A stretch of 64,000 nucleotides of DNA from contig OZ076409.1 of assembly GCA_964187785.1 (NCBI GenBank), forward strand, positions 27,096,001 through 27,160,000, in the 5' to 3' direction. This DNA comes from Amphiscolops sp. MND2022. Taxonomy: Eukaryota. Under the pieces are notes generated by a model, which saw nothing but the letters and a program-made list of their open reading frames with translations, searched no databases and was not told the origin of the DNA. The translations under genes and the position numbers were made by a program. Below, piece by piece: positions 28,855-64,000 of this stretch (position 1 is its first letter; every line of letters starts with the position of its first letter).

Positions 28855-30844
28855 TGTCAAGCCCAACCTTGGCCTGCTTTGAAGGACCTTGGACATTAGT
28901 ATTTTGGCTTTCGCTATCAGACTTCTTTAGAAAAGCCATCATTAGGTCCTTCAGTTGACGGAATTCTGACTCTAGGTCACTGATTTTCCTCTCGTAACTT
29001 TATCTATTTTTTTGCGAGTTGGGAGGGAACATCATTGCTTTCACTGGTATCAGTATCTACAGAATTTACTTCAGCAATCATAAGAGAACAAATGGTAGGT
29101 GTTTCAGATGTTGGGCCGATGATTTTGCCGTTTCTAAGCCTATTTCCTCGTTCTACGCTCATGCGATAAAGAAAATATTGAGTTTTGGATTAAGACTGGA
29201 TTGTACGAAGTTTTAGTTATGTAATTTCGATTTTATGATTTCTGGCTGTAACCAATTCAGTAATCTGAACTGGAGAGGCGTTTTGCTAACGATTCTGAAC
29301 GGTTTCTAATTTACGATAAGAAAGTGATAGGTTTACAAATATCCAAAGAAGTTCATCTATAATTCATCAGTAATTTTCAGAGTAAATATAACTAGTCAGT
29401 GGTTCGTAGATAGGAATATGCGAGGCCTGAGTAGATGACATTTAGATGGTTTCGGTGGTTTTAAAGGTAACAACTGTACTGTAGCTGGTTGTAAAATCTC
29501 ACTGACTAATCAATCATGGCGGCTTTCCTTCAGCAATTCGCGTGTCATGCTCGGATGGTAAGACTCATATTTTTACCATCCGCTCTTCTTCTTGGCATGT
29601 GTGGCTGGTGCTAATTGGTAAATCACGTGACTATTAGTGGTGCGAATTGCCGCTGGAGGAGCTACTCGTATGTTACATTTGCATATTGCGCAACTGTGTA
29701 CGAATCATTATTGGATTTTAGATCAATACTTGCCTGCACAGCATTGTTAAAACTATGGTGATGTAGAGACGATGAGTTTCTACACCAAGACTGCCAGTAA
29801 TGAATCATAATCATACTAAATGCACAAAACGATGAATTGATGATGAATTTCAAGCAGAATGAGTTATTTTTCAGCACACATTTGTCATTCAGATGTATAA
29901 ACGATGAACTCCTCATCAGATACTACCAAATTTCAGCACAACTTTTGAATCACCGAAGTAAAAACGATGAACCTTTTTAAATACATCAAAGAGTCCATCT
30001 CAACCAATTTTATAGATGGAATTAAATTGTACTTTTCTCTTTCTTGCTTCGTGTTGAGCTACGTTAATGTACGAATGATTCTTTTGAGTACGACGATGAG
30101 AAAATTGTGGATAGTGCAACTGAACAAATTCGCTGATGAATTTATGAAGTGATTCTTTATTGATAAAGCCACGTCGAAGTGTAGTAAGGTCAGATCTGCT
30201 GATGGATTTGCGATGAAATATACATGTAAATCGCTTTAATGTACTAGCACCAAATTCGCTAATGATTTTCCTATGAATTCATGCTTACAAAATGTGAGCA
30301 CCTAATTAAATTGAAATCGCTGATGAATTCAGGATGGATTTTTACCATATACACTAATCCAAACGTTAGTTAGTCTAAATTCGGTCGCAGTGATGGAAAA
30401 TAGATGAACTTCTGTTCATCGTTTAGTCTATGAGTTGAATAGATCAGTAGCGATTGTTTCACGATGGGTTGTCACGATAGTTCACTCTGAGGCAGCAGCT
30501 TGCTAACCGAGTAACAAATTGCATGTCTTTCTCATCCGCCGGTCTAGTTGACCGAAAAACCACTCTCTCAATTATCGTGACAAACCACAATTATGAAATT
30601 GCGCTTTTGCTAAATAGCATGGATCATTTGTGCAGACATCGAAACTAGGGTGCTCAGTATTAATTAAATAGATAACTCAAACTCAGGGGGAAAATTAGGG
30701 ATTAGGTACAAGTAACGTAGAGTTGCTCACAACCATAGCTTTTATTATATGTTATCATATTATTGCCCATAAGTAAGTACATGAGACATAGTTTTTACAT
30801 TACAGATATTCAGTAATCTATATATCCATCATGCTGGCATGACA
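28855..30844 (-). mobile_element. Solo LTR (~1990 bp) related to the Gypsy element at 52877
   Basis: TGTC...GACA termini; reverse complement starts TGTCATGCCAGCATGATGG as at 52877 and ends GGTTGGGCTTGACA as at 55049; retains gag N-terminal coding remnant; flanks CCGGC / CCAAC may be a decayed 5-bp TSD. Confidence 0.88.
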
Positions 30845-33008: not shown

Positions 33009-33572
33009 TGTATGATAAAGCTTCAAAATAATTCAAAAAGAGTTTTTGTTTGAATTTCAAACCTTCAAGACTCGGTAATTTACCGATCAATGTCTTCAAT
33101 TTTGCTATTTAAGGGTTAACAAACCTTCTCTGTCGACGGACCACCCACAATTTGTGAGATAAAACAATTATTATAAAAAGAATTGTCCAATTGTTGTGAT
33201 TCTCAGGTTCAAGAAGCCAATTTGGCTCAAACATGACATTACTCACAGAAACAGCGGTGAAACTTCAACATAAAATCAACATTAACTCAATGAGAAGTCA
33301 ACGTACTTCAATTTTGATTGGCTGTCCAGCAGCGCGTAGCAGTTTTGATATACTAAAATGTCATCAATCAATAGACAGGGCATCAAACAGACTCTAAAGT
33401 TATATCATATAACGATTATCAACAAAATGTTTCATAAAAAACTCCTTCAACATAGTTTTAATTATTGCCGGGTCCAATTCTTTCCTTTTGATCCAAAATT
33501 GTGTCCCAAAATTTCGTTCAAGAGGATTTGATATTTGAACTGGAACATGCTCCGAAATTTTCGTTTCTAACA
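33009..33572 (-). repeat. BEL 3' LTR
   Basis: Direct repeat of 39892-40455; preceded on the element strand by the purine-rich tract AAGGCGGGCGGTA. Confidence 0.95.
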
Positions 33573-33684
33573 TACCGCCCGCCTTGATTTCGCCCAGTAA
33601 ATCAAAGTAAATCAAGTTGATGTTTGCTTCTTTCGGAGATAGTTCCATAAATCGTAACATAGCTCTAAATTGTATCAGATTCAT
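33400..33684 (-). CDS. Putative 94-aa ORF3 overlapping the pol stop and extending into the 3' LTR
   Basis: ATG 33684-33682 overlaps TGA 33683-33681; open across the PPT and 173 nt into the LTR; no recognised domain. Confidence 0.45.
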   Translation of the reverse strand: MNLIQFRAMLRFMELSPKEANINLIYFDLLGEIKAGGMLETKISEHVPVQISNPLERNFGTQFWIKRKELDPAIIKTMLKEFFMKHFVDNRYMI

Positions 33685-36600
33685 TCCAAATTATCATTCA
33701 GTAAAGGTAGCTTCCGTAGTTTGGCAACCGGTCTGTTGAAAATACCGTTAGATGTTTTCACTTTTACAACGCGTACGAATTGGTCGGGTCCGCTATATAC
33801 GTACGTTATTCGACCGAGTGGCCACTGGAGAGGAGCAACGTTATCATCGGTCAAGTATACCAGATCACCAACTCTTAAATTTTCGCTTTCATTTTTCCAT
33901 TTCAGACGTTCTTGCAACGAAGAAACGTACTCTTTTGTCCAACGCTTCCAAAAAATGCCTAGAAGATTTTGCAGGAAAAACCAACGTTTTTGTGGCGAGC
34001 ATTTTTTGATTTCATCCGGTACACTAGAAATTTTCATTGGGAAAGCTTCTAAGCTTCCACCACAACAAAGGTGTGCCGGTGTTAAATGTTTGGGATCCTT
34101 TGGATCCTCTGACAGAACGCCTATTGGTCTTGAGTTCAAGACCCATTCGATTTGGCAGAACAATGTTGTCAATTCCTCAAAGGAGAGCACATTGTTCCCC
34201 ATAATTCTCCTCAAATGGTGTTTAGCGCTCTTTATTGAGGCCTCCCATAGCCCTCCGAAATGAGGAGCACGTGGCGGTATCAGATTCCACTTCATATGCA
34301 GGTTGGCAGCTTCAGCCTGAAAGGAATTTGCGTGCTCATTTTTCAGGATTTTCTGCAATGCCTCAATTTCAGCTTTTGTTCCTGCGAAGTTCGATCCATT
34401 GTCGGTGTATATCATAACTGGGCATCCTCGCCTTGCGGTGAACCGACGTAGAGCAGCAATACAAGCTTGTGTTGTTAGATCAGAAACTGCTTCAAGATGC
34501 ACAGCACGGCTAGCGAAACATACAAAAAGGGCGAGATATGCCTTTTCTGAATTCTTACGAGTTCCTTAACAAGCGAAGGGACCTCCGAAGTCTATTCCAA
34601 CGTCTTGAAATGCCTTTGTGGGCACATCTATCCGCGACTTTGGGAGGTCACCCATTAAAGGTAAGGTGGCCTTTGTTGTGAAGCGACTACACTTCACACA
34701 GTTGCGAACAAACTTGCGGATTTTAGCACGACTGGCTGGGATCCAAAAACGTGTTCGGATTTGTGCCAGAACTTGGTTGGTGCCACCATGCAAAGTTTTC
34801 TCATGGGCATTAGCAATTATCAATCGAGCAAGTTGACTCTCAGGAGGAATGATTCTTTGGTACTTCGCCTCGTCAGGCAAGTTCGCATGCACAAGACGTC
34901 CACCCACACACAAAACATCTTCATGAAGAAATGGGTAAAGCTTCAAAATTTTACTGGATTTATCGACTTGGTTTTTAGTCTTCAAAGTCGATATCTCATT
35001 CTTGTAGAACAAGCCTTGTTCCTGTCGTAGTAGCATGCAAAGCGCTTCAGTCCTTTCATCAAATGTTATGTATTCCGGAAAATTTTTCCCTTCTCTTTTA
35101 AGTCGTGAAAATGCGCGCTTAACAGTTGAAACAATTCGCAGTGCTTTCTCGAAGGAATTTTCTTTCGTCAAGTCGAAGATTACTTCCGTACTCTTTGCCT
35201 CTGTAACAGTCAGCACAACTTGATCAGAGTTGTTTGGCTTCACTTTATGATCTGCTCGCTTTAGTTCTTCTTTTGTCTCACAAAATGGAGGCTGTTCTGG
35301 AAACTTGTTAGTGACCAACCACTGGGGACCAGACCACCAAAGCGAATGTTCTTTCAGCGTGTGAGGATCGATTCCCCTGGATGCAGCATCCGCCGCGTTA
35401 TCTTCACTTGGCACATGTCGCCAAGTAACATCCGGATACTCATGAATTTTGGAAATTCTATTCGCCACGAAGGTTGACCATTGACTAGGCTCCTTCAAAA
35501 GCCAAGACAACACAATTGTGGAATCTGTCCACGCATTTTTTGACTGAATTTCCATTTTCAGCTTGGAAAGACTTTTGACTACAGCGTTCAAGAGATTCAC
35601 CCCTAATAAGGCAGCGCACAATTCGAGTCGAGGAATAGATTGAGTTTTTAACGGGGACACCTTTGATTTGCCAGTCAGTAGAGTGGCTTTCATGTTACCT
35701 TCTGTGTCACAAGAGACAATGTAAACACAGGCTGCATAGCCCTTTTCCGAGGCGTCGCAAAAGAGGTGTAAATTAATCTCATCATTTTGCTCGTTGCAAA
35801 GAGCGAATCGATCAATCGCGATTTCGTTCAAAAATTTCAATTTTGATCTCCATTTGCAATAAAATTCCGAAATGTCAGAAGGAAGGATAGCATCCCAGTC
35901 GGTTCCGCATTTCCAGACTTCTTGCATAAGCTGCTTCAGTTGCAGGGTGACTGGCGAAAGCCAACCAAGTGGGTCAAAGACCTTAGCAATGTCACTGAGA
36001 ATTCGTCGCTTGGAAAGCCTTTCGGTTAAATCTAGCTTCAGGTGTTTGACGGTGAATGTGAATTTGTCCTTGATGGGGCTCCAGACAATGCCAAGTGTCT
36101 TGATAGTATGATTCTCATTCAGGAATTGGAAGTCTTCACTTGCTTCGCGATACTCAGGTGGAAGACCTTGGGTCAGCCTGGCATCACTGCAAGTCCATTT
36201 ACGAAGGTCAAATTGTCCTTGTTTTAGAGTGTCGATGAGACCGGTCTGCAAATTTTTCGCCTCTTCCAAGTTTTCGGCACCAGTTAGAATATCATCAACA
36301 TAGAAGTCGCGTTCAATGGCATCTTTGACGATTTCAGGTGTTTTTGGAGACTTGGCACAATCAAGAAGTGATCTGATTGCATGAAAGGAAGAACTTGCAA
36401 CACCATAGGTTACTCGAGTCATCCGATAGGTCAAAATTGGTTCATTTGGATTCTTACGCCATAGAATTCTGTGCAAGTCGCGATCTTCGAGAGAGAGTTC
36501 AACCTGGCGATACATTTTCGCCACATCTGCTGACATTGCAATTTTGAATATGCGAAATCTGATTAGAATGTTGAACAAATCGTCTTGACATTTCGGTCCC

Positions 36601-38894
36601 ACTAACAAACAATCATTGAGCGAAAAACCGGTGGAAGTTTTTGCACTGGCATCAAAAACGACGCGAAGTTTTGTAGTTGAACTTTCTTCCTTTGTCACAC
36701 AATGGTGCGGCAAATAAATATTTCTAGGATTATCCAATTGATCATCCGGTACTCTTTCTAAGTGCCCAAGATCAAGGAATTCTTGAATGAATGCAGCGTA
36801 CCTTTCTTTCAATGACAAATCAGAATTCAATTTCTTCTCGAGGTTAAGAAATCGGCGCATCGCGATAGCTTTGCTTGATCCCAATGTAGGTCCATCAGAT
36901 TTCAAAGGCATTTCAACGACGAATCTTCCATCATCTTTCCGCTTCGTTGTGCGGTTGAAATGTTCAACACATTCAGATTCTGACTTTGTCAACATTTTCT
37001 TCTCCGGTACATTTTCAAGTTCCCAAAATTGGGTAATATCGACTTTATTAACATGAACAATGTCACCTTTGGTGATTTCATTACCTTGTTGAACAGGTCC
37101 CGAAATTATCCAACCAAAAATTGAATTTCTAATGTGCAGACCATTCTCTTTGAGTTTTCCTTCTTTCATTACATCTTCTAGAACATCTGCTCCGAGTAAA
37201 ATATCAATTCTTCCTGGGGAGTTGAAGTGTGGATCAGCCAGTTTGAGGTTTTTGAGGCTTTCAAGCGTTGGGACCTTCACTTTCTGAGGAGGCACGAGAT
37301 TCGAAATCTTAGGAACAATGTGAAGATCAACATGTACTGCTTCATTGAGGACAGTTGACAAAACTCCCTTTGATTTTTGTGAAGAGGATGATCCAAAGGG
37401 TGTTATGCTGATCGTGTTTCCATGAATTTTTGATTTCATGGCATTGGCTCTACTTTCATTAATAAAGCTAGCTTGAGATCCAGAGTCAAGCATGGCTCGC
37501 AGGGTCACTGGAGTGCCATCGGCGTCCTTGATTGTCACATATGCTGTTGATAAAAGAACAGTTTTCTTGGGGCTGACAGCTGCACATTGGTTATTCGAAA
37601 CTGTTTCGACAATGGAGGTAGCTTGAGTTTCTTGGGAAGTGTTTTCAACTTCGACGCAAGTGGTTTTTGTTTGAGAAGGGCGATGCAACATAGTATGATG
37701 CCTTTGTCTGCACTCTCTGCATGTAAATTTAGAGGGACATTTACTGACATTATGACCAATTTGAAGACAATTGTAGCATCCACGCTTTGCTTTCACAATT
37801 CTGAAGCGTTCCGGTACTGAAAGAGTTTTGAATTTCAGACACTCGTGTAACTTGTGTTCTTCATTGCACCCATCTACACAAGATACTGAAGCCGTATAGA
37901 CGTGTGAATGCCTCTCTCGTGCATTCTGATTATTTGCTTGTTGCGGAATCGGCTTCGAATTACTCGATTCTAGTGCTCGACTCCTTGTATTGAGAAATTC
38001 TGCTAGTTGATTCCAAGTTAACAGTTCAGTGCCTGGATGAGCAAGTTGCCATTGTTTGCGGGACTCGGGGTCCATTTTTTCAGACAGCCAAAACACGAGG
38101 AGCGAATCCCATTGGTCAGTGGGTTGCCCAAGTTCATTCAAAGACCGGAGATGCTCATTCGTGACTTCTAGCAGTTTACGGAGACCGCTGGCAGATTCAA
38201 CCTTCATTGAGGGTTGAGACCAAATAGATTGAAGGTGTGCTTGTACGATGCTCCGTTTGTTGGCGTATCTATCGGTGAGTAGGCCCATAGCAATAGCGTA
38301 GTTGGCATCAGTTATGGAAACCGAGCAAATCAATTTGGCGGCATCGCCTTTCAAGCATGCGCGCAGATAATTGAGTTTCTCAGAGTCAGTCAATTGAGTA
38401 TTAGAATCTACTGCTGCCCTGAAAAGATCAAAGAACGACATCCATTCAGTATATGACCCACTGAAGGTTGGCAGGTTCAGTTTTGGCAAGCGGAGCTTGC
38501 TGCCGGCACTCCTCGGTGAAGAACTTCGTCGCAAAGGAGTAGAATCACTCGTTTCTAACCTTTTTTTGTAGTTTTCTATTAAGGCGGTTAATCTAGCAAT
38601 TGCAATGCCACTACGTATGTCAAACTCGGTAGCATTGTCAACTTCGGCGTCAAATTTAGCATCATCTTCAGTTTCAAGCTGAATTTCCAAATTCCAACGA
38701 TGGATATCAAGTGCCTTTGTTTTCATGTTCGAGAGAACAGCTTCAGCTTCACAAAGCTGATCTTCATTACTAATTCCGATATTTACTAACGTGTCTAAAC
38801 GGCTTTCTAGACGAGTAAATGCTCCTTTGTGGCCACCTCGCACCTTAATTTTTTGCTTAAGATCTAGTTTTTCCGCAGCGGGCTCGTTATCCAT
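33681..38894 (-). CDS. gag-pol: BEL/Pao gag-pol polyprotein with one in-frame TAA at 34566-34568 inside integrase
   Basis: LPKLNLPTFSG gag motif; three Cys/His knuckles; LDSGSQ protease; FYVDD RT; FCDAS RNase H; HHCC and DDE integrase. The same frame resumes after the stop (PFAC*GTRKNSEKAYLALFVCF...VHLE). Confidence 0.95.
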
Positions 38895-39112
38895 GGCAAT
38901 GACCGTTGCCTTTCTTAAATTTTACTAAAAACGATAGTTATTACGGTTTGAAAGTCCTTATCAGGTAGTTCTAGATAAGCCCACGACGAGATCACGTCAG
39001 TAGGCTACACTAGATCTACTGACCAACGTTTGAAATCAGATAAACCCACGACGAGAACACGTCTGTAGGTTACACTAACTTCAAAAGTACAACGATGATA
39101 AAGTCCAACCTT

Positions 39113-39721
39113 TTAAGTTTTTGACAATTTTTTCAGAAACCGGCGTTTTTTCTGCGAGAGTCGTTTCCTTGGCCGCCTCGTATTCTGCGCGAGGGCCTTC
39201 AAATTCGAAGAATGCTTCAAAACCAGCTGTAAAGAACGAATTTCTAACGGTCCTTCTTGATGAAGCTGCAAATATTGATGTAGGAGGAATTTATCTTGTT
39301 GTCTGCGACGCGAGATTAAATTCTTTGTGATTCTGATGGTCACAATATTAGTTGACCGTAATGTTTCGAAGATTTGAGGGGCTCCAAACCTCTGGCAATA
39401 CACGATAGCTGCTATTCGTTCCTTGTACTTCAATAAAATTGACGCTAGTTGACTTCCTTCAAGGCCAGTGTAAGAATTAGATTTATGTTTCGTAATACTG
39501 TTGTTGATAGTGTCGTGCCAGATCACTAAGTTTGTTTTTTGGTGTAAAAATCCTCGTTCCAAAAGGTAAGAAAGGCTTATAAGAGGTCTTTTAGGTGAAA
39601 TGTTGGGATTTAAACTCAATGATGGGACTGCAGTAACGAATTTTGCAAGAAACCGTTTTTCTCTAGGGGAAAGTTGATCGATTGCGTGCTTCAAAGAACT
39701 TGCACCAACGATATAAACCAT
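39113..39721 (-). CDS. Extra 202-aa ORF upstream of gag, SGNH/GDSL-hydrolase-like, with a basic C-terminal tail
   Basis: Intact ORF between PBS and gag; YIVGASSL, VPSLSL, VIWHDTINNSI and QLH fall in SGNH block I/II/III/V order; tail RRPRKRLSQKKRRFLKK. Confidence 0.7.
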   Translation of the reverse strand: MVYIVGASSLKHAIDQLSPREKRFLAKFVTAVPSLSLNPNISPKRPLISLSYLLERGFLHQKTNLVIWHDTINNSITKHKSNSYTGLEGSQLASILLKYKERIAAIVYCQRFGAPQIFETLRSTNIVTIRITKNLISRRRQQDKFLLHQYLQLHQEGPLEIRSLQLVLKHSSNLKALAQNTRRPRKRLSQKKRRFLKKLSKT

Positions 39722-39867
39722 CAATTCAAACTTTGAGAGCTTAAAACTAACAATTATGACGGTAAAAGTCTCGGAAACTTGATAATTTCACAAAATCTGG
39801 AAGTCCTGATGGTCTTCTTTTTTCAATAAGATTTTAATGGAAGAGATCGTGTCCTGGGTCTTCAATG

Positions 39868-39886
39868 TCCGGGTCAGTAAGGACCA
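39868..39886 (-). promoter_or_regulatory. BEL primer-binding site, tRNA-Tyr-like
   Basis: TGGTCCTTACTGACCCGGA begins 5 nt after the 5' LTR; resembles the TGGTCCTTCGAGCCGGA tRNA-Tyr-type PBS. Confidence 0.7.
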
Positions 39887-39891
39887 ATAAA

Positions 39892-40455
39892 TGTATGATA
39901 AAGCTTCAAAATAATTCAAAAAGAGTTTTTGTTTGAATTTCAAACCTTCAAGACTCGGTAATTTACCGATCAATGTCTTCAATTTTGCTATTTAAGGGTT
40001 AACAAACCTTCTCTGTCGACGGACCACCCACAATTTGTGAGATAAAACAATTATTATAAAAAGAATTGTCCAATTGTTGTGATTCTCAGGTTCAAGAAGC
40101 CAATTTGGCTCAAACATGACATTACTCACAGAAACAGCGGTGAAACTTCAACATAAAATCAACATTAACTCAATGAGAAGTCAACGTACTTCAATTTTGA
40201 TTGGCTGTCCAGCAGCGCGTAGCAGTTTTGATATACTAAAATGTCATCAATCAATAGACAGGGCATCAAACAGACTCTAAAGTTATATCATATAACGATT
40301 ATCAACAAAATGTTTCATAAAAAACTCCTTCAACATAGTTTTAATTATTGCCGGGTCCAATTCTTTCCTTTTGATCCAAAATTGTGTCCCAAAATTTCGT
40401 TCAAGAGGATTTGATATTTGAACTGGAACATGCTCCGAAATTTTCGTTTCTAACA
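39892..40455 (-). repeat. BEL 5' LTR
   Basis: Same length as 33009-33572 and no differences seen by eye. Confidence 0.95.
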
Positions 40456-52545: not shown

Positions 52546-52843
52546 CTCCGAGTCCTTCCATAAAAAGCATGAGCTCAAAAAATTGCTATTTCCAAAATGA
52601 AAAATCATCTTATTGCTGTATTTTTTTCAATTTTAAAAATCTCTACCATTTTTTGACCAACATCTAAGACACTTTTACTCCAGTGATTTTTTTCTGAAAT
52701 GCATGTTCAAAGATTTGTTGAGCTCTTCCGTTTTTCATATGTGAAATTAAATGTCTTTAGCGTTTTAGTACCGCTAGTGTGCTTACTGACAGACATTTTT
52801 CAACTAGCAGCGGTTCCGTTTTTTGTGTAATATTAGTATCTAT

Positions 52844-52848
<5 letters not shown>

Positions 52849-52876
<28 letters not shown>
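52849..52876. repeat. (TC)n microsatellite abutting the Gypsy 5' LTR
   Basis: Pure TC run ending at the LTR's terminal TG. Confidence 0.9.
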
Positions 52877-52880
<4 letters not shown>

Positions 52881-55049
52881 ATGCCAGCATGATGGAAATA
52901 TAATCTACTAAATATTTGTAATGTAAATATTATGTCTTATGTACTTAGATATGGGCAATATGATGTCATATAATAAGAGCCATGGTTGTGAGCAACCCTA
53001 CGTTACTTGTACCTTAATCCCTACCCCCCCCTGAGTTTGAGCTATATATATTTATTTAATACTGAGCGCTCTAGTTCCGGTGTCCGCACAAATGATCTTG
53101 CCAATAGCTTTAATGTGCTATCTTATTCAATATTGGTTTGTCACGATAAGGGAGAGAAGTTTTCCGGTCAGACTGGACCGAGAGATGTAGAAATAATGGA
53201 ATATGTAACTTCTACTAGCTCCCTCGCCTCAGGACTTGTAGTCGTGACGATTTTCAGAAAAGTTCATCACTAATCCATCAGCGGACTTAGTGATCCTTTA
53301 ACTTCACTTACTAGTGAAATCACGGTGCTATGTTATCAAGGTTCATCGCAATCACATCGCCAAAATTGCGGGTGAACAAAATTTGGGACATTTATTTGAT
53401 TTCATTTAGTGATCCATCAGCGGATCTCACGGGACTTTAAAATACATGAAAACCATCTTATACTCATCGTCGTTTTGTGAATTTTAACCTTCAATGTGCT
53501 TCTCATTTCTTAAAAGAGCATAACACATCTATATTTCATCGTCCTGACTAGTAACTACAAGGAATGAGAAAGTACATCCTTAATTCATCCTAAAAAAGAG
53601 TGAAGTGCTGGATATCTGTTTTTTTAGATTAACTCATCACTAGTTCATCGTAAATTCATCGCTAGTTCGACTTGCGTTAGAATTAGCCGAAATTTCAGTT
53701 GAGTTCATCCTAAACCCATCGTAGGAATTTCATTCATTAGATTTTGCTGTTTTATTGAATGTATTCATCCTAAAGTCATCATATATTTGTCTTCACTGCA
53801 GAATTAGCTGTTTCACCTGCTTTGTTGGCTGAATTCATCCTGAATTCATCGCCAATTTCACTAGTGCTGGAAATTAGTTATTTTCGAGGAGAGTTCATCC
53901 TTTTATCATCGTCAGTTCATATCGTGTTGATTTTCGAGCTAAAAGACCACCATTCATCGCATTTTCATCCAGAGCTAAACTAGACTTGAAAATCAGCAAA
54001 TATTCTGACGAATTCATCGCGTTTCCATCTTTGGTTTTGAAGTATTGATCTTAATGCTAGAATTAGTTGGAAAACATCGTTTTCTCATCCTGTGATGCAG
54101 TTTACTCTGTTTTGACTTGAAATTAGTACATTATTGAATGATTTGAGTTGCTATAGAAACCATGACACTGTGTGCAGGCAATTGCGACATTGTAAAGTGA
54201 TGATTAGTCATAATTAGCATATGTAGATGTACCATGTAGTTTGGCCAACTTGCGGCAGTTCACAACACCGGTCACGTGACTTACCAATTAGCACCAACTG
54301 GCAATAGCCAATAAGAGTCGGCTGGTAAGAGATTTAGCGTCTTACCAGCCTGAAAAGACACGTGAACTGCTGTATTTTGGACCGCCATTAGAGATTACTC
54401 AGACCGAAATTGCGATTAGCTACTGTCCAGTTGGACGAATTACGACAGATTTGAACTAGAAAAACATATCTCTTATTCATCGTAAAACGCTACCTTCACA
54501 ACTCTGAGTAATTTCTTGATTGATACCTGTCCGATGAAATTTGGATGAACTCTACTTAATCCTCGTTAACTATTCTCATTCTATACTAGTATCCTTGTCT
54601 TACTGTAAAACTCATCGCATTTACATCTCAAGTTCAGAAATAGTGAATTTGAGTTCGAATAAAGGCACAAAATAGTAAAATACATCGAAAAATCATCCAG
54701 AATCCAGTCTTCACTCATAATTCCTTTTCTCTCACCTCTATGAACCCAGATCTAGGCACCGAACTCAGAAGCGGAAGAGTTATTAGTTCCTCATCAGAAA
54801 CACACGTTCAAACGGACCCAGACATGGCTCAGTCTTCTGCCAATGATTCTGATAGCAACGAGGTTTCCGATATCTCGTCTCAGTTATCTGAAATAAAAGA
54901 GAGCTATGAGAGAAAGATAAACGAATTACAGAATGAGTTCAGTCAACTGAAGGACTTAATGATGGCTGTCATAAGTAAGACAGACACCGAAAACCGACAG
55001 TCAACCTCGAAAGGTCCTTCAAAGCCGACCCACACGGTTGGGCTCGACA
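52877..55049 (+). repeat. Gypsy 5' LTR, 2173 bp
   Basis: TGTC...GACA termini; both ends fixed independently by similarity to the solo LTR at 28855-30844 and by the adjacent PBS. Confidence 0.85.
54271..54312 (+). promoter_or_regulatory. Candidate LTR promoter: palindromic E-box GTCACGTGAC plus two CCAAT boxes
   Basis: GTCACGTGA and the adjacent CCAATTAGCACCA are conserved in the diverged solo LTR (~29606-29631). Confidence 0.55.
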
Positions 55050-56245
55050 TGGTGACAGGAGTTACAGAAACCCGCTCCAACCGCCCGACAACCAGCTTCA
55101 CCAACTTCAGAAGTTACCAAGAAGACGATTCAGACGAAGGAGAATCAACCCCCAGAAGCAATGAGGAACGACTACTCAATGCAATCGAGACGATCCCCCA
55201 ACGGATCAAAAACACAACCACCAACACGAAGCTTCTGCAGACACACGTGCCAAATTTCAGAGGCCAAAAAGACAAATTCGTCGAATTTGAGCACCTTCTC
55301 CTCAACCACCTTAGCCCGCTTGCCAACAAAATCACCGAGGAGAACAAACTACACTTCTTTCAAAGCCTTTTGAGAGATGACGCAATAGAATACTGGCAAT
55401 CCATCCAGATAACGCCAATGACAACACTAAAGGACGTACTCGACCTCTTCAGAAAAGAATTTGCAAAAGAGGATCTAAAGGAAGTGGCCCGTTACAAATG
55501 GGATCAAGCACGCTATGATCCCACAACAGAAACATTCGGCGATTTCCTCAAAAATCTCAAGAAGACTGCCAAACAAGCCTTCGGCAATGACGCCGACAGT
55601 ATAATCAAAATGTTCCTGTTTGGAAAACTGCCAGTCGAGATTCAACAAGAGCTCACCATGGCAAACAAAGAAAAGAGCTCCCCAGAGGAAATCAAAACCT
55701 ACCTAATGCGAAAATACCAGTACCAGCAGTACGTCGCGCCACCTACGGCAATCCAACCATTCAACGCGGTCACCTCCTCAGCACCACCTACGATTACAAC
55801 GACAAAGCCTACAACAACAACGACGACCGCACAACCGACAGAACGAAAACGATTTGAAGGACAATGTTTCTACTGCGGAAAGACAGGACACCGCAAAACA
55901 GAATGTCGCGCCCGACAACGAGACGAAGCGATCGGCATAAAGAAGGAGGATGCAATCCCAATGAAGAAAGCAGCCGATCCAGATAAACCGAAATACAATC
56001 CAAAATTGGTTTGCCAGATTTGCGGTTACACAGGCCACTCAGCAAGGGATTGCAGACGACGTGTACCTAAAGAAAGCAGTTCTGCATATGGAAAGATTCC
56101 ATACGCAACGAATTCACAAGATGACAACAGAACTAGAAGACAAGACTTAAAACGACAACAAAAGCCGATGAATCCTATGCAAGCAGTCACCGAAGAAGAA
56201 GACCAAGAAACCTACTCTGATGAAGACATAAATCAGGGTTTTTGA
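54740..56245 (+). CDS. gag: Gypsy Gag, 501 aa, two CCHC zinc knuckles
   Basis: N-terminal LRSGR, coiled-coil-like segment, VPNFRG capsid-start motif, CFYCGKTGHRKTEC and CQICGYTGHSARDC. Confidence 0.93.
   Translation: MNPDLGTELRSGRVISSSSETHVQTDPDMAQSSANDSDSNEVSDISSQLSEIKESYERKINELQNEFSQLKDLMMAVISKTDTENRQSTSKGPSKPTHTVGLDMVTGVTETRSNRPTTSFTNFRSYQEDDSDEGESTPRSNEERLLNAIETIPQRIKNTTTNTKLLQTHVPNFRGQKDKFVEFEHLLLNHLSPLANKITEENKLHFFQSLLRDDAIEYWQSIQITPMTTLKDVLDLFRKEFAKEDLKEVARYKWDQARYDPTTETFGDFLKNLKKTAKQAFGNDADSIIKMFLFGKLPVEIQQELTMANKEKSSPEEIKTYLMRKYQYQQYVAPPTAIQPFNAVTSSAPPTITTTKPTTTTTTAQPTERKRFEGQCFYCGKTGHRKTECRARQRDEAIGIKKEDAIPMKKAADPDKPKYNPKLVCQICGYTGHSARDCRRRVPKESSSAYGKIPYATNSQDDNRTRRQDLKRQQKPMNPMQAVTEEEDQETYSDEDINQGF
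55050..55062 (+). promoter_or_regulatory. Gypsy primer-binding site (tRNA-Leu-like) lying inside gag
   Basis: TGGTGACAGGAGT directly follows the LTR-terminal CA; one mismatch from the TGGTGTCAGGAGT tRNA-Leu-type PBS. Confidence 0.75.
56236..56242 (+). promoter_or_regulatory. -1 ribosomal frameshift heptamer G_GGT_TTT
   Basis: X_XXY_YYZ pattern in the gag frame immediately before the gag TGA; pol is open in the -1 frame from here. Confidence 0.85.
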
Positions 56246-59200
56246 TTCCGCCACGATTTCCACCCGCTAGAAACACAACGCGCGACCAACGACTTTCGAC
56301 TCAACCGACTACACACGACCGTCCAATGAAGAAATGGCAGCCTTCATTGGACAAACGACCAAAAGCTGACGATGTCTATCAGCGAAGACTTTCCAACGAT
56401 GAAAAAGCGATGAGAAATGCAAGTCAACTCAACGGCAGCCGCTTTTCTCCACTCGCTGAAATCAACGATGAACAAACGATGAACTGGCAACCAAACACCA
56501 TGAGGCAGGTGGAAGATGCCAAAGAGATGGAAACCCACCATCTAGACGACGACTCGACTTCACACTCAACAATCGACAAACGGCTTAGTATTAAAAAACA
56601 TGCAAATCAGAGTAGTATTAACGTTTCGAAAACTAAAAAACATGCAATTAAAACAGAAATTCACGTTCTCAGTCCCACTTTACATTTAAACAAGAAAGAT
56701 AAAATGCTGTACGTCCCTCTTCAGTTTGACAAATACGAAAACAGCGCACTTTTAGACACAGGCGCAATACAAAGTGCAATGTCTGAAGCCGAACTGCGAA
56801 AAATAACAACGGCTCATCCAGAAGCCATCCTTCAAGAATTCCCCCCTCCGAATTTCAAAATTCAAATAGCAAACGGGAACTTAGTCCCAGTGCGTAAGCA
56901 AGTCTTACTTAGATTTTACGTTGCTGGAAAAGTATTCGAAGAAACGTTCCTAATCCTTCCAACAATGGGAACAATTTTAATTGGAATGTCCTTTTTTGAA
57001 AAGTACTCAGTCAACTTAGACATCAAAAACCACCTTGTCCACTTCCCTAATCACATGATGTCCATGCAAGTTAGACAGCAAAAGAACAACAGATTCAAAA
57101 CTGGTTTAATTGATTTGTGTTCCAGCACTAGAACAGTGATCCCTCCTCTCCATCAAGTGATGATACAGGTCCACAGTGACGCGGACATCTCACTTACAAC
57201 TGGTACAGTTGAGGGCTCACCTGGATTCATGCGAAAGACGTGTTTGCTTGTTTCTCCAGCTTTGGTTGACCTAGACGAGGGCAAGACGACAATCCAGGTC
57301 ACCAACCCAAACAACCACACGTACACACTTGAAGCCAACACCACTCTGGCACACTTTCGCATCCCGACACCACACCAGGCGGCAAACATCGCGCCCATGC
57401 CAGTGGAACACTTGAACTTGATCACCAAGTATCCAGATGAAGCCGAAGCAGTGATCAACCAACTGTTCGTGAACCCTGAAATGAAGTCAACCAAGTGGTA
57501 CCCAACTCCCGAGACGTGCAGTGAGCCAGACAAACTCAACGCAATTGAGCGACGGATTTATGATGAGATTCTGGCACTGCGAGAGCTCGAGAAGCTTGAC
57601 CCGTCCCAATCCGATGAACAACGGATGAACTTCCTGAAGAACTTCAACTGGGACGACTCACTTCTTACTCCGTCTCAACGGTTACAGGTAGAGGAGTTGC
57701 TGGTAAAGTACAACTCCATTTTTGCTAGACACCGTTTTGATATTGGCATGAACACTGATTTTAAAGTTAAGTTAACACCTCAACATGAAGAACCTGTTTA
57801 TTCACAAAGTCTCCCGACTCCGACAAATTTGAAGGACGATTTGCTCGTGGAGTTAGCCCTAATGCAAGAGTACGGGATTATAACTACTTTGCCTCACAGC
57901 AAATACTCTTCCCCGATATTTGCTCAGCGTAAACCTAATGGTAAATTGAGGATTTTAGTTGACTTGAGAAGAATAAACCACCTGATCAAAAACGATTACG
58001 GTGAGCACAATCATCCCGTAACAACAATTGCTGACGCTGCCCAACACATGGCCGGGAAAAGGTACTTCTGCAAACTTGATTGTTCCCAGGCCTATCATTG
58101 CATTCCAATGGCCGACGAGCAATCTGTCCAACTGTTATCGTTTAATTTTGAGTCTAGAACTTTTGCATTTTTACGTCTAGCACAAGGTCTTAATCGTTCT
58201 TTGTCAGCATTTACAGGAGTAATCCGTGAGTATTTGGACCCCTTGGTCAAAGCGGACCGCTGTGCCCAATATGTTGACGATATTGGGATTGCAGCACACT
58301 CACCCGAAGAATTGATTACCAACCTTGAACTTGTTTTTCAACAATTGCACAAAGCTGGTCTTAAACTTAGCATGAGTAAATGTGAATTTGGACAAAAACA
58401 AATTGAGTACTTGGGAAAAACCATTTCTAGCACTGGTATTGCTCCCATTGAAAAACGCGTAACAGACTATTTAACGAAGTTGAAACCCCCCAATTCAGTG
58501 AAAGCGTTACAACGTTATCTTGGTTTTGTGAACTTTTACAGGTCTTACATTCCCCGTCTAGCTGATAAAACTTGTTGTTTACAGGAACTCATCAAGAAAG
58601 ACGTCCCTTTCAAGCTGAACCAACAACATAAAGATGCTATTTTTGAAATTAATGAAAGTTTGTTAAAAGCAACAAAAGTGTCTCTGAAACTGCCATTACC
58701 AGATAAACAACTGGTAATCATGTGTGACGCCAGCGAACACGCTGCAGGCTATGTGTTGTTAATCGAAGATTATGCAGACCCGTCAGTCAAACATACATAC
58801 GCCCCTGTTGCATTTGGCTCTAAGAAATTTCAGGGCGGCCAGATGTCTCTAACAATGTATGCCAAAGAGTTTTTAGCTATGCACTTTGCCTTCGATGAAT
58901 TTGGCCACATTTTGTGGGGTGCGAAAAAACCCATCATTGTTATGACTGACAATAAGGCCTTAACTAGATTTTTCCAGGCGAAGCATATCCCGCCTTCACT
59001 TTGGAATTTTTGCGATCAAACCCTTCAGTTCAATTTTCTATTAGCACATGTTCCAGGAGTTGAAAATCCCGCAGCGGATTACTTATCTCGGCTTGAGATT
59101 AGACCTGAAGACCGTGTACATTTAAAATTGACTGATACTATTCCAATTCACAGGATCGAGATCGACATCGCCTCCCGTACACCAAAACAGGAGGAAGACG

Positions 59201-61335
59201 AGCCTGATTACTTCCCCGCGAGCGAACCACTCAGATGCAAACGCCAGAAGGATGTCAAAGAGATGAAATTGGCAACTGGCACTGACGTGGCTCATGACGA
59301 TGGGAAAGGGATGAAGTTCACCAACTGTGAGAGAACTGCGGCCTCAGATGACTTCGCGACTGACAACCATCTGACGTACCGCCTCACAGACGTGGACGAG
59401 CCGATTCAACTCTCGCAATTCATCCGTAAAGTATCATTATCACACCCGGTAATGAGTCAGGTTAGCCCCGCCGAGGGGATCGATCTAATTCAGGTCCAGA
59501 AAAATAACTGGGTTATCCAAAAAATGATTAGATTTTTAGAAGGTACTGAAATTTTGCAACACCCAGTTAACATGCAAGACCAGTTTTTTCAAAAGTTGTA
59601 CAAAAATCGAAAACGCCTACAAGTTGTAAACGGTGTCTTGTACAGACAGTTTTTTGATCACACGGGACTAGAGTCTCATAAGCAGTTAGTCGTTCCTGAA
59701 GACTGTATTTTGACAATAATTAGGACTCTACATAACAGCCCGGTACAAGGACACCCTGGTTTAAAGAAAATGTTGTATGAACTTCGTAAAAGATATTACT
59801 CTCCTAACTTAGCCTGTAAAGTTCAAAAAGTCCTTGACGGATGTGAAAACTGCATGAAGTCTAAAAGTGTAAAAGAAACGCAACTACGTCCACCGTTACA
59901 AAAAATCTACGACCCGTGCGACGGACCAGAAGACCTGCTGGAAATAGACATCGTTGGTCCACTCCCGGCATCGAACGGTTTTACACACATTCTGACGGCT
60001 GTTGACGTTTTTTCGCGCTACCTGTTCGCCGTTCCGCTGAAGAGACCTGACACACATTCCGTAGTCAGAGGACTACTGTCGATCTTCACAAAACACGCGT
60101 ATGTGCCCAAACACATTCTGACCGACAAAGGCACGGCGTTCACGGCTGAACTTCTGTCTGAAATCGCGAAAGCGGCTGATATTCACATCTCCCACGCCAC
60201 GATAAAGCACGCGCAGACAATAGGCATGGTGGAGAGAACGCACGCGAAACTGAAAAAGATCCTTAAGATTAGTGTAAACGCAGACAGACCACAATGGGAC
60301 CGCTATGTCGACATAGCAATCATGGCCCATAACACAACATACCATGATTCACTGAAATGTTCTCCAACCGAAATTTTCCACGGAAGGACACCATACAACT
60401 CACTAGATCTGCAATTCCGAAACGCAAACAAACCGGCTGAAACAAAGTGCAAGGACGTGAACGAAATTCTAGACAAAATGAATTTTATCTTCAGAGACAA
60501 TCTAGATAACATCATTTCCGCCTATCACAAGTACAAAACGTACTATGATAGAAAAGCACGAGCACAGCCACTGAAGGTGAATGAATTCGTGTTCCTACTA
60601 GACCCTAAGTACGACTCTCAGAGAAGCAAAGAAGAGTTTAAAACTTTCCATTGGAAAGGACCGTACAAGGTGATTAAAGTGCTATCCGATAGCAACTACA
60701 TCATCCGCAAAGTAGGCACACACCAAACTCAGTGCGTACATCGCATGCGACTGAGATTGTTCAAACCGGAATTTCCGATTGACGACATCAACGTGTCCAA
60801 ACATCTCTACCCAGACACCGAAAGGGTTGAAGACACGGACATTTTCGACTCGAATATTCCGACGACCGACGAGATAGATCAGAATGAGAATGACAATCTA
60901 GATCAAGACTTGGTCGAAGAAGAGCCTTCAGAAGAAACAATTCCTCGAGTACAAGAACAACACACTCCACAAGTAATTCCACCAGAAATAACCACGAGAA
61001 TAGACTATCAGCAAGTAGAGACTGATCACAACAACTTTAGACCACCTACAGTTAGATTCGGAACGCGAGAAGAAATTATTTTACCGCCTCCCCGCGATGA
61101 GAGTAGGATAAGAGTACCTCTGAGAGACGAACAACACGAAAATCAGTCACAACAGACAAACACGCAAAATGAAGATGAAGAAACGATGAGTTCTAGACCG
61201 TCTAGATCAAATCAAAGTAGGTACAGGTTACGTGAGAACCCTACACCGAAAACGTATCCAGACTTCCTCATTCATGAGATTACTTCAGCTAGAAACGCAC
61301 TGAGAAAGACCAACAAAATAGACGTAACGATTTAG
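56242..61335 (+). CDS. pol: Gypsy Pol, 1697 aa: protease, dUTPase-like insert, RT, RNase H, integrase with GPY/F motif
   Basis: LLDTGA; YVDD; CDAS; H-x6-H...CxxC; DDE core; WKGPYKV; uninterrupted ORF. Confidence 0.96.
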   Translation: MIPPRFPPARNTTRDQRLSTQPTTHDRPMKKWQPSLDKRPKADDVYQRRLSNDEKAMRNASQLNGSRFSPLAEINDEQTMNWQPNTMRQVEDAKEMETHHLDDDSTSHSTIDKRLSIKKHANQSSINVSKTKKHAIKTEIHVLSPTLHLNKKDKMLYVPLQFDKYENSALLDTGAIQSAMSEAELRKITTAHPEAILQEFPPPNFKIQIANGNLVPVRKQVLLRFYVAGKVFEETFLILPTMGTILIGMSFFEKYSVNLDIKNHLVHFPNHMMSMQVRQQKNNRFKTGLIDLCSSTRTVIPPLHQVMIQVHSDADISLTTGTVEGSPGFMRKTCLLVSPALVDLDEGKTTIQVTNPNNHTYTLEANTTLAHFRIPTPHQAANIAPMPVEHLNLITKYPDEAEAVINQLFVNPEMKSTKWYPTPETCSEPDKLNAIERRIYDEILALRELEKLDPSQSDEQRMNFLKNFNWDDSLLTPSQRLQVEELLVKYNSIFARHRFDIGMNTDFKVKLTPQHEEPVYSQSLPTPTNLKDDLLVELALMQEYGIITTLPHSKYSSPIFAQRKPNGKLRILVDLRRINHLIKNDYGEHNHPVTTIADAAQHMAGKRYFCKLDCSQAYHCIPMADEQSVQLLSFNFESRTFAFLRLAQGLNRSLSAFTGVIREYLDPLVKADRCAQYVDDIGIAAHSPEELITNLELVFQQLHKAGLKLSMSKCEFGQKQIEYLGKTISSTGIAPIEKRVTDYLTKLKPPNSVKALQRYLGFVNFYRSYIPRLADKTCCLQELIKKDVPFKLNQQHKDAIFEINESLLKATKVSLKLPLPDKQLVIMCDASEHAAGYVLLIEDYADPSVKHTYAPVAFGSKKFQGGQMSLTMYAKEFLAMHFAFDEFGHILWGAKKPIIVMTDNKALTRFFQAKHIPPSLWNFCDQTLQFNFLLAHVPGVENPAADYLSRLEIRPEDRVHLKLTDTIPIHRIEIDIASRTPKQEEDEPDYFPASEPLRCKRQKDVKEMKLATGTDVAHDDGKGMKFTNCERTAASDDFATDNHLTYRLTDVDEPIQLSQFIRKVSLSHPVMSQVSPAEGIDLIQVQKNNWVIQKMIRFLEGTEILQHPVNMQDQFFQKLYKNRKRLQVVNGVLYRQFFDHTGLESHKQLVVPEDCILTIIRTLHNSPVQGHPGLKKMLYELRKRYYSPNLACKVQKVLDGCENCMKSKSVKETQLRPPLQKIYDPCDGPEDLLEIDIVGPLPASNGFTHILTAVDVFSRYLFAVPLKRPDTHSVVRGLLSIFTKHAYVPKHILTDKGTAFTAELLSEIAKAADIHISHATIKHAQTIGMVERTHAKLKKILKISVNADRPQWDRYVDIAIMAHNTTYHDSLKCSPTEIFHGRTPYNSLDLQFRNANKPAETKCKDVNEILDKMNFIFRDNLDNIISAYHKYKTYYDRKARAQPLKVNEFVFLLDPKYDSQRSKEEFKTFHWKGPYKVIKVLSDSNYIIRKVGTHQTQCVHRMRLRLFKPEFPIDDINVSKHLYPDTERVEDTDIFDSNIPTTDEIDQNENDNLDQDLVEEEPSEETIPRVQEQHTPQVIPPEITTRIDYQQVETDHNNFRPPTVRFGTREEIILPPPRDESRIRVPLRDEQHENQSQQTNTQNEDEETMSSRPSRSNQSRYRLRENPTPKTYPDFLIHEITSARNALRKTNKIDVTI

Positions 61336-64000
61336 CCAAGAAAAGTCTCATTTTACATCTGAGATGTATTACGGATGAACAAATCACAAAACGAACGAAT
61401 TACATGCAATTTTAACTTAAAAAGTACATGAAGATGTAAAATGGATGAAAAGTTACTAAAAATCACATGAAAACCGCATACAAACAAAACGCGATGTAAA
61501 ACGGATGAAAAACGATCAAAAAACCAGAAAAACAACACACAAAAACTTGAGATGAAAAAAGGATGAAACCACATGAAAATTTCGCTCAGACACACGAGAG
61601 ATGAAAAAGTGATGAAATCAGTCAAAATTTCGACCAATCTACATGCAATTTTTACTAGCGATGCATTTGAGATGGAAAATACCATCAGAATGCAAGCGCA
61701 CCCACGTTCATGCTATTACAAGACTCTAGCTCGGCCAGAGGATGAAATAGCGATGAACTCGATCCAATTATTCATAGATTACATGAAATCAATTAACGAG
61801 ACGAATTTGTGATGGACACTACCATCAAATCGCGACCGAATTTATCGTTAACCTGACACAATACTCTAGCTTCGCTGGAGGATGTCAAAACGATGAATTT
61901 AGTCTAAATGGAAATTCGAAAATATTAAATGACTTACCAACACCTCTTTGTGATGGGAAACACCATCAACATAACATCACAATAAATCAGCTAATTCGCA
62001 AACAACATGTAACTCCACGAAACGATAAAAACAACCGACCTTATTTCGAATCATGCAACGAAATTATGCGACACAAACATGAAATGATCAATACATGTAA
62101 AGTTCAAAGACCTGCCAAATCAATGACGGCACGAAAGCAATTAACAATTCCAAACTACATGCAATACAAATGAGCAACGCACGGAAATATACATGTACCG
62201 TTCAAAAATGAATGAGATAATATATGCAATTCACAGCAAAACCATCCGAACCTAGACGAATAAAAATAAAACAAACAAACGAAAATACATGAAGTCTACT
62301 AATTTACATGCAAAATATAAGAATTGACGAAACACCTACTAAACTAACAAAGGAGTGAGCACCCCCCAGCAAACATCAGTTTATAACAAGCAAAACACCC
62401 CTATCGATAAGCCAAAAACATTCCTTCGTGCTGGCTGGCATTTCTCTGAAAAGAGTGCTGGTTAGTTGAGGCGGGGAGCTCACAACCATATTCGGATGAA
62501 GCTTGCTGCGTTGGTTATCCAGCGGCTAGTGGATTCTCAGTTAGTTTTGTAGGGGCTTTGTGACGACAAAGCCCTGTCCAAATGAACGAAAATAAAATCA
62601 AAAAACATGAAACTAACACCGAACATATAACGACATGTCAATAATGGGGCAACCCATTTAAAAGAACACATCATCTAACAATCCATACATGCAAATACAA
62701 GAAACAGATAGTCTAAAACTGGACACATGCATAACCGTAGATGTCAATCACATTGATTGATCGGACTGACCGTCAAATGGACAAACCCATTTCGACGAAT
62801 AATGGCAAACAACCAACCGAAAAAATGACATATAGACTATATATAGCCCGAAACTACGAGATTCCATTTATCTGAAAGGAGCGGAGCAGCTCCACTCACC
62901 CAGCTCTGGACTGAAGCCACTAGTACCTTGCACGCCTACAGGCTATCAGTACCACTGCTGAGTGAACTTATTTTCGACCGCCACGCAAGCGGCGGTCACC
63001 AGAAAGCGAACTAAAAATACATGCAATAACGTTCCGAAGTTGACAAATTAGAAACATGACGACGATGATCAAAACACATGTACCATAAAATTCATGCAAA
63101 TTCAAAAACACGACAAATGGTTATAACCGTATAACGCTAAAATACATGAAGAAAACAATCCGAAACACCGCAATATTAATAAAATTTCCTCCGGACATGA
63201 AAAATGCAACCCCCGCTTACGTTATACCCAAATAACATCGAAAACACGCAAAAATCCGTACATTTCAAACGCACGATAAAAAGAAGATGAACTATACAAC
63301 AAAATGAGCAAAAAACTTGCCAAGTCAAACTTGCGATACAAAAACGATGAATTACACCAAAAAACTAGCAAAAATGCAAAAATTCAAACGCAAGATGAAA
63401 AAACGATGAAATACGTAGAAAAACCACATGTAACAACATGCAATATTTCTGACGCACCGAAAGATGTAAAAACGATGACAAAAACAGTTTTCACGACGTC
63501 GCTTGGTCGACCGAGGAAAACGTGATGAAAATGAGATGAAAAATCAAAGATCAAACGCTGACGAGTTACTTACACTACCGCGAGATGTAATAACGATGAA
63601 CACCATAAAAGCGACGCGCGACCGATGATCTATGATACAAAAATACCGAAGACAATGCTTCAAGTGAACTGTTGGACGAACTTGTTGATTTACACGTACT
63701 TAATATCCTCTGTAACTATCTCTAACAACTCAAAAGAAAAACAGCTGTTGGGCACCAAAATAACTAATGTTGTAAACACACTACTACCGATCTTTCCGCC
63801 GTAGCATCTGGATTTGTATCATTCTCACTATGGTCATTACTGTGCTTTCCATTTATTGACCTTTTTCATGGGTCTCCCAACATATGAATAACTACACTAT
63901 AATGTAAATACAACAAATTATATAGCAAAACAATGAACAACATAAACAGTTAATAAGTCAGTTTCCAATCTCGGGACTGGCAGCCCGCTCCCCGGTCACA

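What the first reader, a model, noticed from the sequence alone, without database searches (positions are those of the whole stretch)
54740..55062. gag starts 310 nt inside a 2.17-kb LTR and reads through the primer-binding site
Seen: the LTR end at 55049 is fixed by the solo LTR and the PBS, yet the gag frame opens at 54740. The junction CA|TGG also creates an in-frame ATG (GLD-M-VTG). Established: most Ty3/Gypsy gag genes start downstream of the PBS; yeast Ty1 begins within its LTR but with a much shorter overlap. Inference: about 100 aa of Gag is LTR-encoded and duplicated in the 3' LTR, and long and short Gag isoforms are possible.
Basis: partly seen in the sequence, partly recalled or inferred. 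Interest (0 to 1): 0.7.

Follow-up and report, generated by a model that had tools for sequence, protein, structure and literature searches.

The report
Gag head written inside retrotransposon LTR
A large family of animal gypsy-type jumping genes writes the first 103 amino acids of its shell protein (Gag) inside its terminal repeat, a much longer form of a layout known from yeast Ty1, so leftover repeats carry an open gene start that runs into neighbouring DNA, and the head likely steers the protein to the nucleus.

Summary
Confirmed. The LTR spans 52877-55049 and gag opens at 54740, 310 nt inside it, reading through the PBS. The in-window solo LTR is a diverged sister family and is weak proof alone. 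Stronger proof: 119 of 120 short database ORFs carry the same head, then turn into unrelated sequence exactly after residue 103; in 118 of 119 the next residue fits a codon starting with the LTR's last base, A. The head is under purifying selection (dN/dS about 0.23) and the junction motif xMVTG holds in Gag relatives down to 40% identity. The proposed short isoform from the junction ATG is not supported: LTR end plus PBS force that ATG and seven ATGs precede it. A conserved second Met just behind an N-terminal Arg motif (M29) is the better candidate. The motif resembles the nucleosome-binding peptides of LANA and IE1 (untested). RNA ends and this copy's 3' LTR could not be examined. Yeast Ty1 has the same layout with about 41 nt. 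This scan already reported the layout twice in this genome and in three other genomes. New variant of a known kind; interest 0.48.

The parts
52877..55049 (+). 5' LTR, 2173 nt, TGTCA...GACA
   Evidence: both ends match the solo LTR; 3' end fixed to the base by 118 of 119 other copies
53343..54090 (+). degenerate array of [TA]CATC[GC] motifs about 60 nt apart; likely U3 enhancer-type repeats (inferred)
   Evidence: 23 motifs on + strand in the LTR against 2 on the minus strand
54252..54433 (+). non-coding block conserved in the sister LTR (E-box CACGTG 54273, CCAAT 54284, inverted repeat, CCGCCAT 54382); candidate core promoter (inferred; motif names recalled)
   Evidence: (69% over 190 columns)
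54740..55048 (+). LTR-encoded Gag head, codons 1-103
54764..54775 (+). N-terminal LRSG motif (LR[SN]G or TRS in relatives); candidate nuclear/nucleosome tether (untested)
   Evidence: resemblance to LANA and IE1 residues in PMC9040877
54824..54826 (+). second in-frame ATG (M29), context GACATGG; candidate start of a form without the Arg motif (inferred)
54866..54991 (+). predicted helix, residues 43-84, with conserved heptad-spaced hydrophobic residues (coiled-coil-like)
55049..55051 (+). junction ATG (M104): last base of the LTR plus first two of the PBS; likely a by-product
55050..55062 (+). primer-binding site, read as M-V-T-G-V; tRNA-Leu-like by recall, tRNA not identified
   Evidence: no tRNA gene in the window
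54740..56245 (+). gag, 501 aa: head, linker, capsid-like helical domain about 164-330, two CCHC knuckles
56236..56242 (+). GGGTTTT just before the gag stop, pol in the -1 frame: likely frameshift site
   Evidence: sequence; heptamer rule recalled
56224..61335 (+). pol frame: protease, RT, RNase H, integrase (Ty3/Gypsy order)
28855..30844 (-). solo LTR of a sister family; carries the homologous ATG at 29162 and a head broken by a frameshift near 29010-29000

Best explanation
The gag frame of this Ty3/Gypsy retrotransposon opens 310 nt inside its 2173-nt LTR and runs through the LTR end and the primer-binding site, and the 103-residue head is likely translated as the true start of Gag from an RNA that likely begins in the conserved block near 54,400. 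Shown: LTR limits, open frame, purifying selection on the head, same layout across the clade. Inferred: most of the LTR is U3, the head lies in R/U5 as in yeast Ty1, so the genomic RNA carries it once at the 5' end and reverse transcription copies it into both LTRs; the PBS has to serve as both tRNA site and codons, which freezes the peptide xMVTG and creates the junction ATG as a by-product. The head (basic Arg motif, acidic spacer, 40-residue amphipathic helix) likely takes the place of a matrix domain for nuclear targeting and oligomer formation. Leaky scanning past ATG1 (pyrimidine at -3 in both LTRs of the window) to M29 would give a second Gag without the Arg motif. Because the head travels with the LTR it is sometimes swapped between sub-families, and each 3' or solo LTR leaves an open head-plus-flank frame.
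For:: 119 of 120 head-bearing short ORFs break after D103, A-first codon next in 118 of 119; 3 more such ORFs in a distant family; junction motif in 179 of 239 Gag-type proteins examined (many others lack the region), complete heads 95-118 aa in 150; same junction at residues 100-224 in more distant Gags; against the sister LTR dN 0.38, dS 1.65 (ratio 0.23, bootstrap upper bound 0.44); codon-position identity 64/102, 72/101, 53/102 against 55/102, 52/101, 60/103 upstream; hydrophobic residues kept at 60, 63, 67, 70, 73, 74, 77 in 87-100% of rows although head identity falls to 10-23%; helix 43-84 at pLDDT about 80; capsid-like fold only after the PBS; second Met at 14-40 in 100 of 104 LRxG heads and 32 of 32 TRS heads, in all 8 motif-bearing head types and neither of the 2 without the motif; 8 of 1176 pairs have heads at most 80% identical with bodies at least 97% identical. 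Ty1 precedent: PMC5454406.
Against: No RNA ends, ribosome or peptide data. The AATAAA at 54658 is not kept in the sister LTR and the U3/R/U5 borders are unmapped. The first 330 nt of the LTR, with a TATA-like box at 53043, is better conserved (about 80%) than the block I take for the promoter; an RNA from there would have 20 upstream ATGs. Two short upstream ATGs remain even from 54390. dN/dS rests on one pair, dS is near saturation and the lower bootstrap bound is uninformative. Only 15 of 32 TRS heads have a G-starting residue after the second Met, and start-context rules of this host are unknown. The head is the most variable part of Gag (77% against 91-95%). One distant lineage (P0079, P0084, P0101) lacks the Arg motif. 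Database proteins probably come from the same or a close genome, so they are other loci, not other species. The reverse swap pattern (heads at least 95%, bodies at most 85%) was seen in 0 of 1176 pairs.
Confidence: 0.8

Rival explanations
1. One reading: the junction ATG (M104) is a real second start and gives a 398-aa Gag with capsid and nucleocapsid but no head.
For: Context GACATGG is strong by recalled Kozak rules; the product would hold the whole capsid-like domain; gene callers start there in some records (11 of 148).
Against: M104 is no better kept than V105 or G107 (172, 175, 176 of 179); five records read Ile there; it is forced by CA plus TGG; seven ATGs precede it inside the head, so it would need its own RNA start or a splice; gene-caller starts in broken or partial copies are not evidence.
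Confidence: 0.12
2. The RNA starts near the left end of the LTR (TATA-like box at 53043) and reaches the gag ATG by splicing or trans-splicing; the head is still translated but lies deep in a long R/U5.
For: First 330 nt are the best conserved part of the LTR; a pyrimidine-rich run precedes the ATG in both LTRs.
Against: No AG directly before the ATG; the TATA-like box is not exact in the sister LTR; the block at 54252-54433 keeps several promoter-type motifs; the left end may instead serve integrase or an antisense promoter (inference).
Confidence: 0.25
3. Gag starts only at the junction ATG, and the upstream frame is an unused accident of U5 sequence.
For: Head identity between distant families is only 10-23%.
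Against: Chance of the open stretch 0.0013; dN/dS 0.23; heptad pattern, length and N-terminal motif conserved across families.
Confidence: 0.04
4. The LTR really ends before 54740 and the solo copy is a truncated internal fragment.
For: Solo LTR flanks differ at 2 of 5 bases and it belongs to another family.
Against: 118 of 119 independent loci break at the same base, 55049; PBS-like TGG follows at once; terminal TGTCA/TGACA inverted repeat in the solo copy.
Confidence: 0.01

Closest known systems
Ty1 of Saccharomyces cerevisiae (Ty1/copia)
   Same: Gag starts in the LTR and the PBS is coding: RNA begins at DNA nt 241, 5' UTR is 53 nt, and PBS mutations at nt 335-347 had to preserve Gag residues (PMC5454406; passages and methods part 1 read).
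   Different: Overlap is about 41 nt (LTR length 334 recalled) against 310 nt here; other superfamily (integrase after RT here); here a folded helix and a conserved motif lie in the LTR.
Cer1 Gag of C. elegans (Ty3/Gypsy)
   Same: Gag has an N-terminal region before the capsid domain predicted as a long coiled coil, proposed to target Gag in place of matrix (PMC10309623, passages).
   Different: Cer1 has 492-nt LTRs and a 5' UTR reaching past nt 1175, so its head is not LTR-encoded.
Mouse ERVL/MT LTRs that donate an AUG to chimeric genes (D6Ertd527e)
   Same: Solo LTRs supply promoter and start codon to flanking DNA (PMC5538554, passages).
   Different: There the AUG is joined by a splice donor and is not the gag start; here 103 codons of Gag read straight into the flank. 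Expression of such fusions is not shown here.
Nucleosome acidic-patch peptides: KSHV LANA, HCMV IE1, foamy virus Gag
   Same: Short Arg motif with a hydrophobic residue before it: LANA L8-R9, IE1 M483-V-T-R486-S487 (PMC9040877, passages and section 6); heads here begin with LR[SN]G or MV[NTYL]TRS.
   Different: Four- to five-residue resemblance only; no binding test; not homologous proteins.

Membership tests
Ty3/Gypsy LTR retrotransposon | pol order protease-RT-RNase H-integrase | tested here: met
Ty3/Gypsy LTR retrotransposon | Gag with capsid fold and CCHC knuckles | tested here: met
   zf-CCHC E 1.7e-7; dArc1, copia and Ty3 Gag by profile; Arc capsid best fold match, weak E 0.018, probability 0.99
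Ty3/Gypsy LTR retrotransposon | LTR with TG...CA ends followed by a PBS | tested here: met
   primer tRNA itself not identified
Ty3/Gypsy LTR retrotransposon | 3' LTR, polypurine tract and target-site duplication of this copy | not testable with these tools
   beyond 64000; no genome held
Ty1/copia | integrase before RT | tested here: not met
Ty1-type layout (works like, not member) | gag start inside the LTR and coding PBS | tested here: met
Ty1-type layout (works like, not member) | start codon lies in U5, behind the poly(A) site | not testable with these tools
   no RNA ends available
env-bearing gypsy elements | env frame after pol | tested here: inconclusive
   no frame over 128 codons in 61335-64000, but the element runs off the window
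acidic-patch binders (LANA/IE1 type) | short conserved Arg motif | tested here: met
   136 of 150 complete heads match LRxG or TRS patterns in the first 16 residues
acidic-patch binders (LANA/IE1 type) | binds H2A-H2B through that Arg | not testable with these tools

The most novel reading that the evidence does not exclude
The LTR carries a portable, swappable nucleosome tether: an N-terminal LANA/IE1-like arginine anchor plus a coiled coil, switched on or off by leaky scanning between ATG1 and a conserved second Met, so the element makes a chromatin-binding and a non-binding Gag. Every 3' or solo LTR is then a promoter-plus-start-plus-tether cassette fused to random host DNA, hundreds of ready-made proto-genes per genome, and moving the PBS into the reading frame may shield it from tRNA-fragment silencing.
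Probability: 0.2. Interest if true: 0.8.

Novelty: new variant of a known kind. Interest (0 to 1): 0.48.

Why it matters
LTR and gag are usually treated as separate modules. Here a quarter to a third of Gag rides in the LTR across a whole clade, so LTR exchange changes the protein, LTR finders and gene callers will mis-cut or mis-annotate these elements (434 short head-like proteins already sit in the database), and each leftover LTR leaves an open frame into host DNA. If the head is a nucleosome tether it gives a testable handle on how gypsy particles stay on chromatin and choose sites.

Tried and rejected
No genome is held for this window, so the 3' LTR and copy-wide DNA statistics were out of reach. 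Related-locus scans found nothing in metagenome contigs (0 of 56 stretches) or viral contigs (0 of 11). The run search listed one holder with a small share and no RNA holder; its contigs do not cover the LTR ends or the junction. One depth-2 contig over 54790-54939 shows 8 listed of 14 differences, six synonymous and two making V42T by my reading; too shallow to count as evidence. Complex prediction of three copies of residues 36-92 gave no verdict (score 0.20). The Atlas search with the head gave only scores of 0.80 or less, chance level. No Rfam match in 52800-64000, no tRNA gene. The leader 54380-55120 folds only modestly better than shuffles (z -2.3, 20 shuffles); not used. Cluster look-ups gave no names. 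Oikopleura Tor elements, a recalled lead, showed no statement on gag inside the LTR in the passages seen (PMC4402516). Paper searches for a gypsy precedent found none, but the library lacks most subscription papers and Repbase reports, so this is not proof of absence; bioRxiv supplements were not seen. The host was not identified; an acoel-like animal is a recalled impression of Pol, untested (one search gave nothing useful). In one search the junction pattern fixed T and limited the other letters, so those counts compare M, V and G only roughly, and 60 of 239 proteins without a matching junction were left out.

Full report
The observation. The window holds the left part of an intact Ty3/Gypsy element: a 2173-nt LTR at 52877-55049 (TGTCA...GACA), a PBS-like TGGTGACAGGAGT directly behind it, gag at 54740-56245 (501 aa), and a pol frame at 56224-61335 with protease, RT, RNase H and integrase in Gypsy order. 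Pol is in the -1 frame behind GGGTTTT at 56236-56242.

How firm is the LTR end? It shares both termini, but it is a sister family (38-87% identity per 100 columns) and its flanks read GTTGG and GCCGG. No genome is held, so I tested the end through proteins. If 3' and solo LTRs carry the head, gene callers should have produced proteins made of the head plus a random tail. A search with residues 1-103 returned 434 short proteins, of which the best 120 were listed. One reads on into MVTG; the other 119 match up to residue 103 and then diverge, identity falling from 119 of 120 at D103 to 6 of 120 at residue 104. If the LTR's last base is the A at 55049, codon 104 must begin with A: it encodes I, M, T, N, K, S or R in 118 of 119, against 30 and 54 of 119 at the next two positions. 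Three cluster members of a family only about 40% identical behave the same way (P0196, P0197, P0204). These copies start at the same Met. The LTR therefore contains codons 1-103 and ends at 55049.

Is the head real protein? The chance of 103 open codons at LTR composition is 0.0013. The sister LTR keeps an ATG at the matching place (29162) and a recognisable head, broken by a frameshift near 29010-29000. Over about 100 aligned codons dN is 0.38 and dS 1.65, ratio 0.23 with a bootstrap upper bound of 0.44; second codon positions are 72 of 101 identical and third 53 of 102, a pattern absent upstream. This is one pair near saturation. Across 40 aligned Gags, head identity falls to 10-23% while hydrophobic residues at 60, 63, 67, 70, 73, 74 and 77 are kept in 87-100% of rows; the model predicts one helix at 43-84 (pLDDT about 80) and the capsid-like helical domain only from about 164, with Arc capsid as the best, weak, fold match. 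The junction motif was found in 179 of 239 Gag-type proteins examined, with complete heads of 95-118 residues in 150; a deeper profile search showed the same MVTG at residues 100-224 in more distant Gags with basic N-termini. For those distant families the LTR end is inferred from the motif, not from DNA.

The junction ATG. An LTR ending in CA next to a PBS starting TGG always spells ATG. Of the three frames across this junction one is closed by TGA inside the PBS, and the one used reads D-M-V-T-G (sequence). The Met is kept in 172 of 179 junctions, V in 175 and G in 176, so the PBS explains its conservation. Seven ATGs lie between 54740 and it. I therefore read it as a by-product, as e1-8580103 did. 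A better isoform candidate is M29: ATG1 has a pyrimidine at -3 in both LTRs of the window, M29 sits in GACATGG, and a Met at residues 14-40 is present in 100 of 104 LRxG heads and 32 of 32 TRS heads, in all eight motif-bearing head types but neither of the two that lack the motif. The following residue is G-starting in 96 of the 100 LRxG cases but only 15 of 32 TRS cases. Starting there would remove just the Arg motif. This is inference; start-context rules are recalled and the host's are unknown.

What the head may do. 136 of 150 complete heads begin with LR[SN]G or TRS. LANA binds the nucleosome acidic patch with L8-R9 and IE1 with M483-V-T-R486-S487 (PMC9040877). The resemblance is short and untested, and a plain nuclear-localisation role is as likely; more distant heads begin with K/R clusters. 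Cer1 Gag offers a precedent for a coiled-coil head replacing matrix (PMC10309623, passages), though not in the LTR. Head swapping, proposed in e1-8580103, finds modest support: 8 of 1176 pairs have heads at most 80% identical on bodies at least 97% identical, the reverse pattern in none.

Where the RNA starts is open. A block at 54252-54433 is conserved in the sister LTR and keeps an E-box, CCAAT and CCGCCAT; upstream lies an array of TCATC-type motifs. This fits a long U3 with a start near 54,400 and a 340-nt leader holding two short upstream ATGs. Against it, the first 330 nt of the LTR is the best conserved part, and the AATAAA at 54658 is not shared. No RNA data were available.

Comparison. 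Ty1 has the same logic: RNA from nt 241, 53-nt leader, coding PBS (PMC5454406), about 41 nt of overlap if the recalled 334-nt LTR is right. Mouse MT LTRs donate start codons to new genes (PMC5538554). tRNA fragments repress LTR elements through PBS sites in 5' UTRs (bioRxiv 10.64898/2026.01.22.698655, passages); whether a PBS inside the frame escapes this is speculation. My paper searches found no gypsy precedent, within a library that misses most subscription papers. This scan already noted the layout twice in this genome and in three other genomes; those notes are unchecked and are not counted as support.

Verdict. Real, clade-wide, and a new variant of a known kind: a Gypsy element that works like Ty1 at its 5' end with a far larger LTR-encoded part. 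Interest 0.48; 0.8 if the switchable chromatin tether proves true (probability 0.2).

Noticed in passing
window 53343-54693 and 61373-63623: The motif [TA]CATC[GC] occurs 23 times on the + strand in the LTR (2 on minus) and 16 times in the opposite orientation in the region after pol (1 on +). With the 3' LTR the two arrays would face each other, like binding sites flanking the antisense gene that other notes describe in this clade, or could pair in RNA. Unexplained.
   Followed up: partly
window 61336-64000: At least 2.7 kb after pol without a long frame. GC-richer islands on the minus strand could be exons of the antisense hAT-derived gene reported in e1-8580076; a three-frame reading showed no clear exon chain.
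   Followed up: partly
window 33009-40455 (minus strand): Young BEL/Pao element: identical 564-nt LTRs, ACCAC target-site duplication, one in-frame stop before the integrase core, and an extra 224-codon frame at 39113-39787 between the 5' LTR and gag-pol that looks SGNH-hydrolase-like by eye (compare e1-9086399); not scanned.
   Followed up: partly
P0240-P0359: Residues 104-105 of head-plus-flank ORFs report the target site: N over K (23:10) and S over R (18:5) suggest a pyrimidine at position 2, and residue 105 suggests a purine at position 4; both flanks of the solo LTR fit. Ordinary weak palindromic preference.
   Followed up: partly
P0240: Head of this family fused in frame to the head of a sister family, likely an LTR inserted just behind another LTR's gag start.
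   Followed up: no
window 52877-53210: The first 330 nt of the LTR are about 80% identical to the sister LTR, more than the coding head; a (CT)14 run abuts the LTR at 52849-52877.
   Followed up: no
window 1-2346: Tandem repeat with a unit of about 1128 nt, 99% identical.
   Followed up: no
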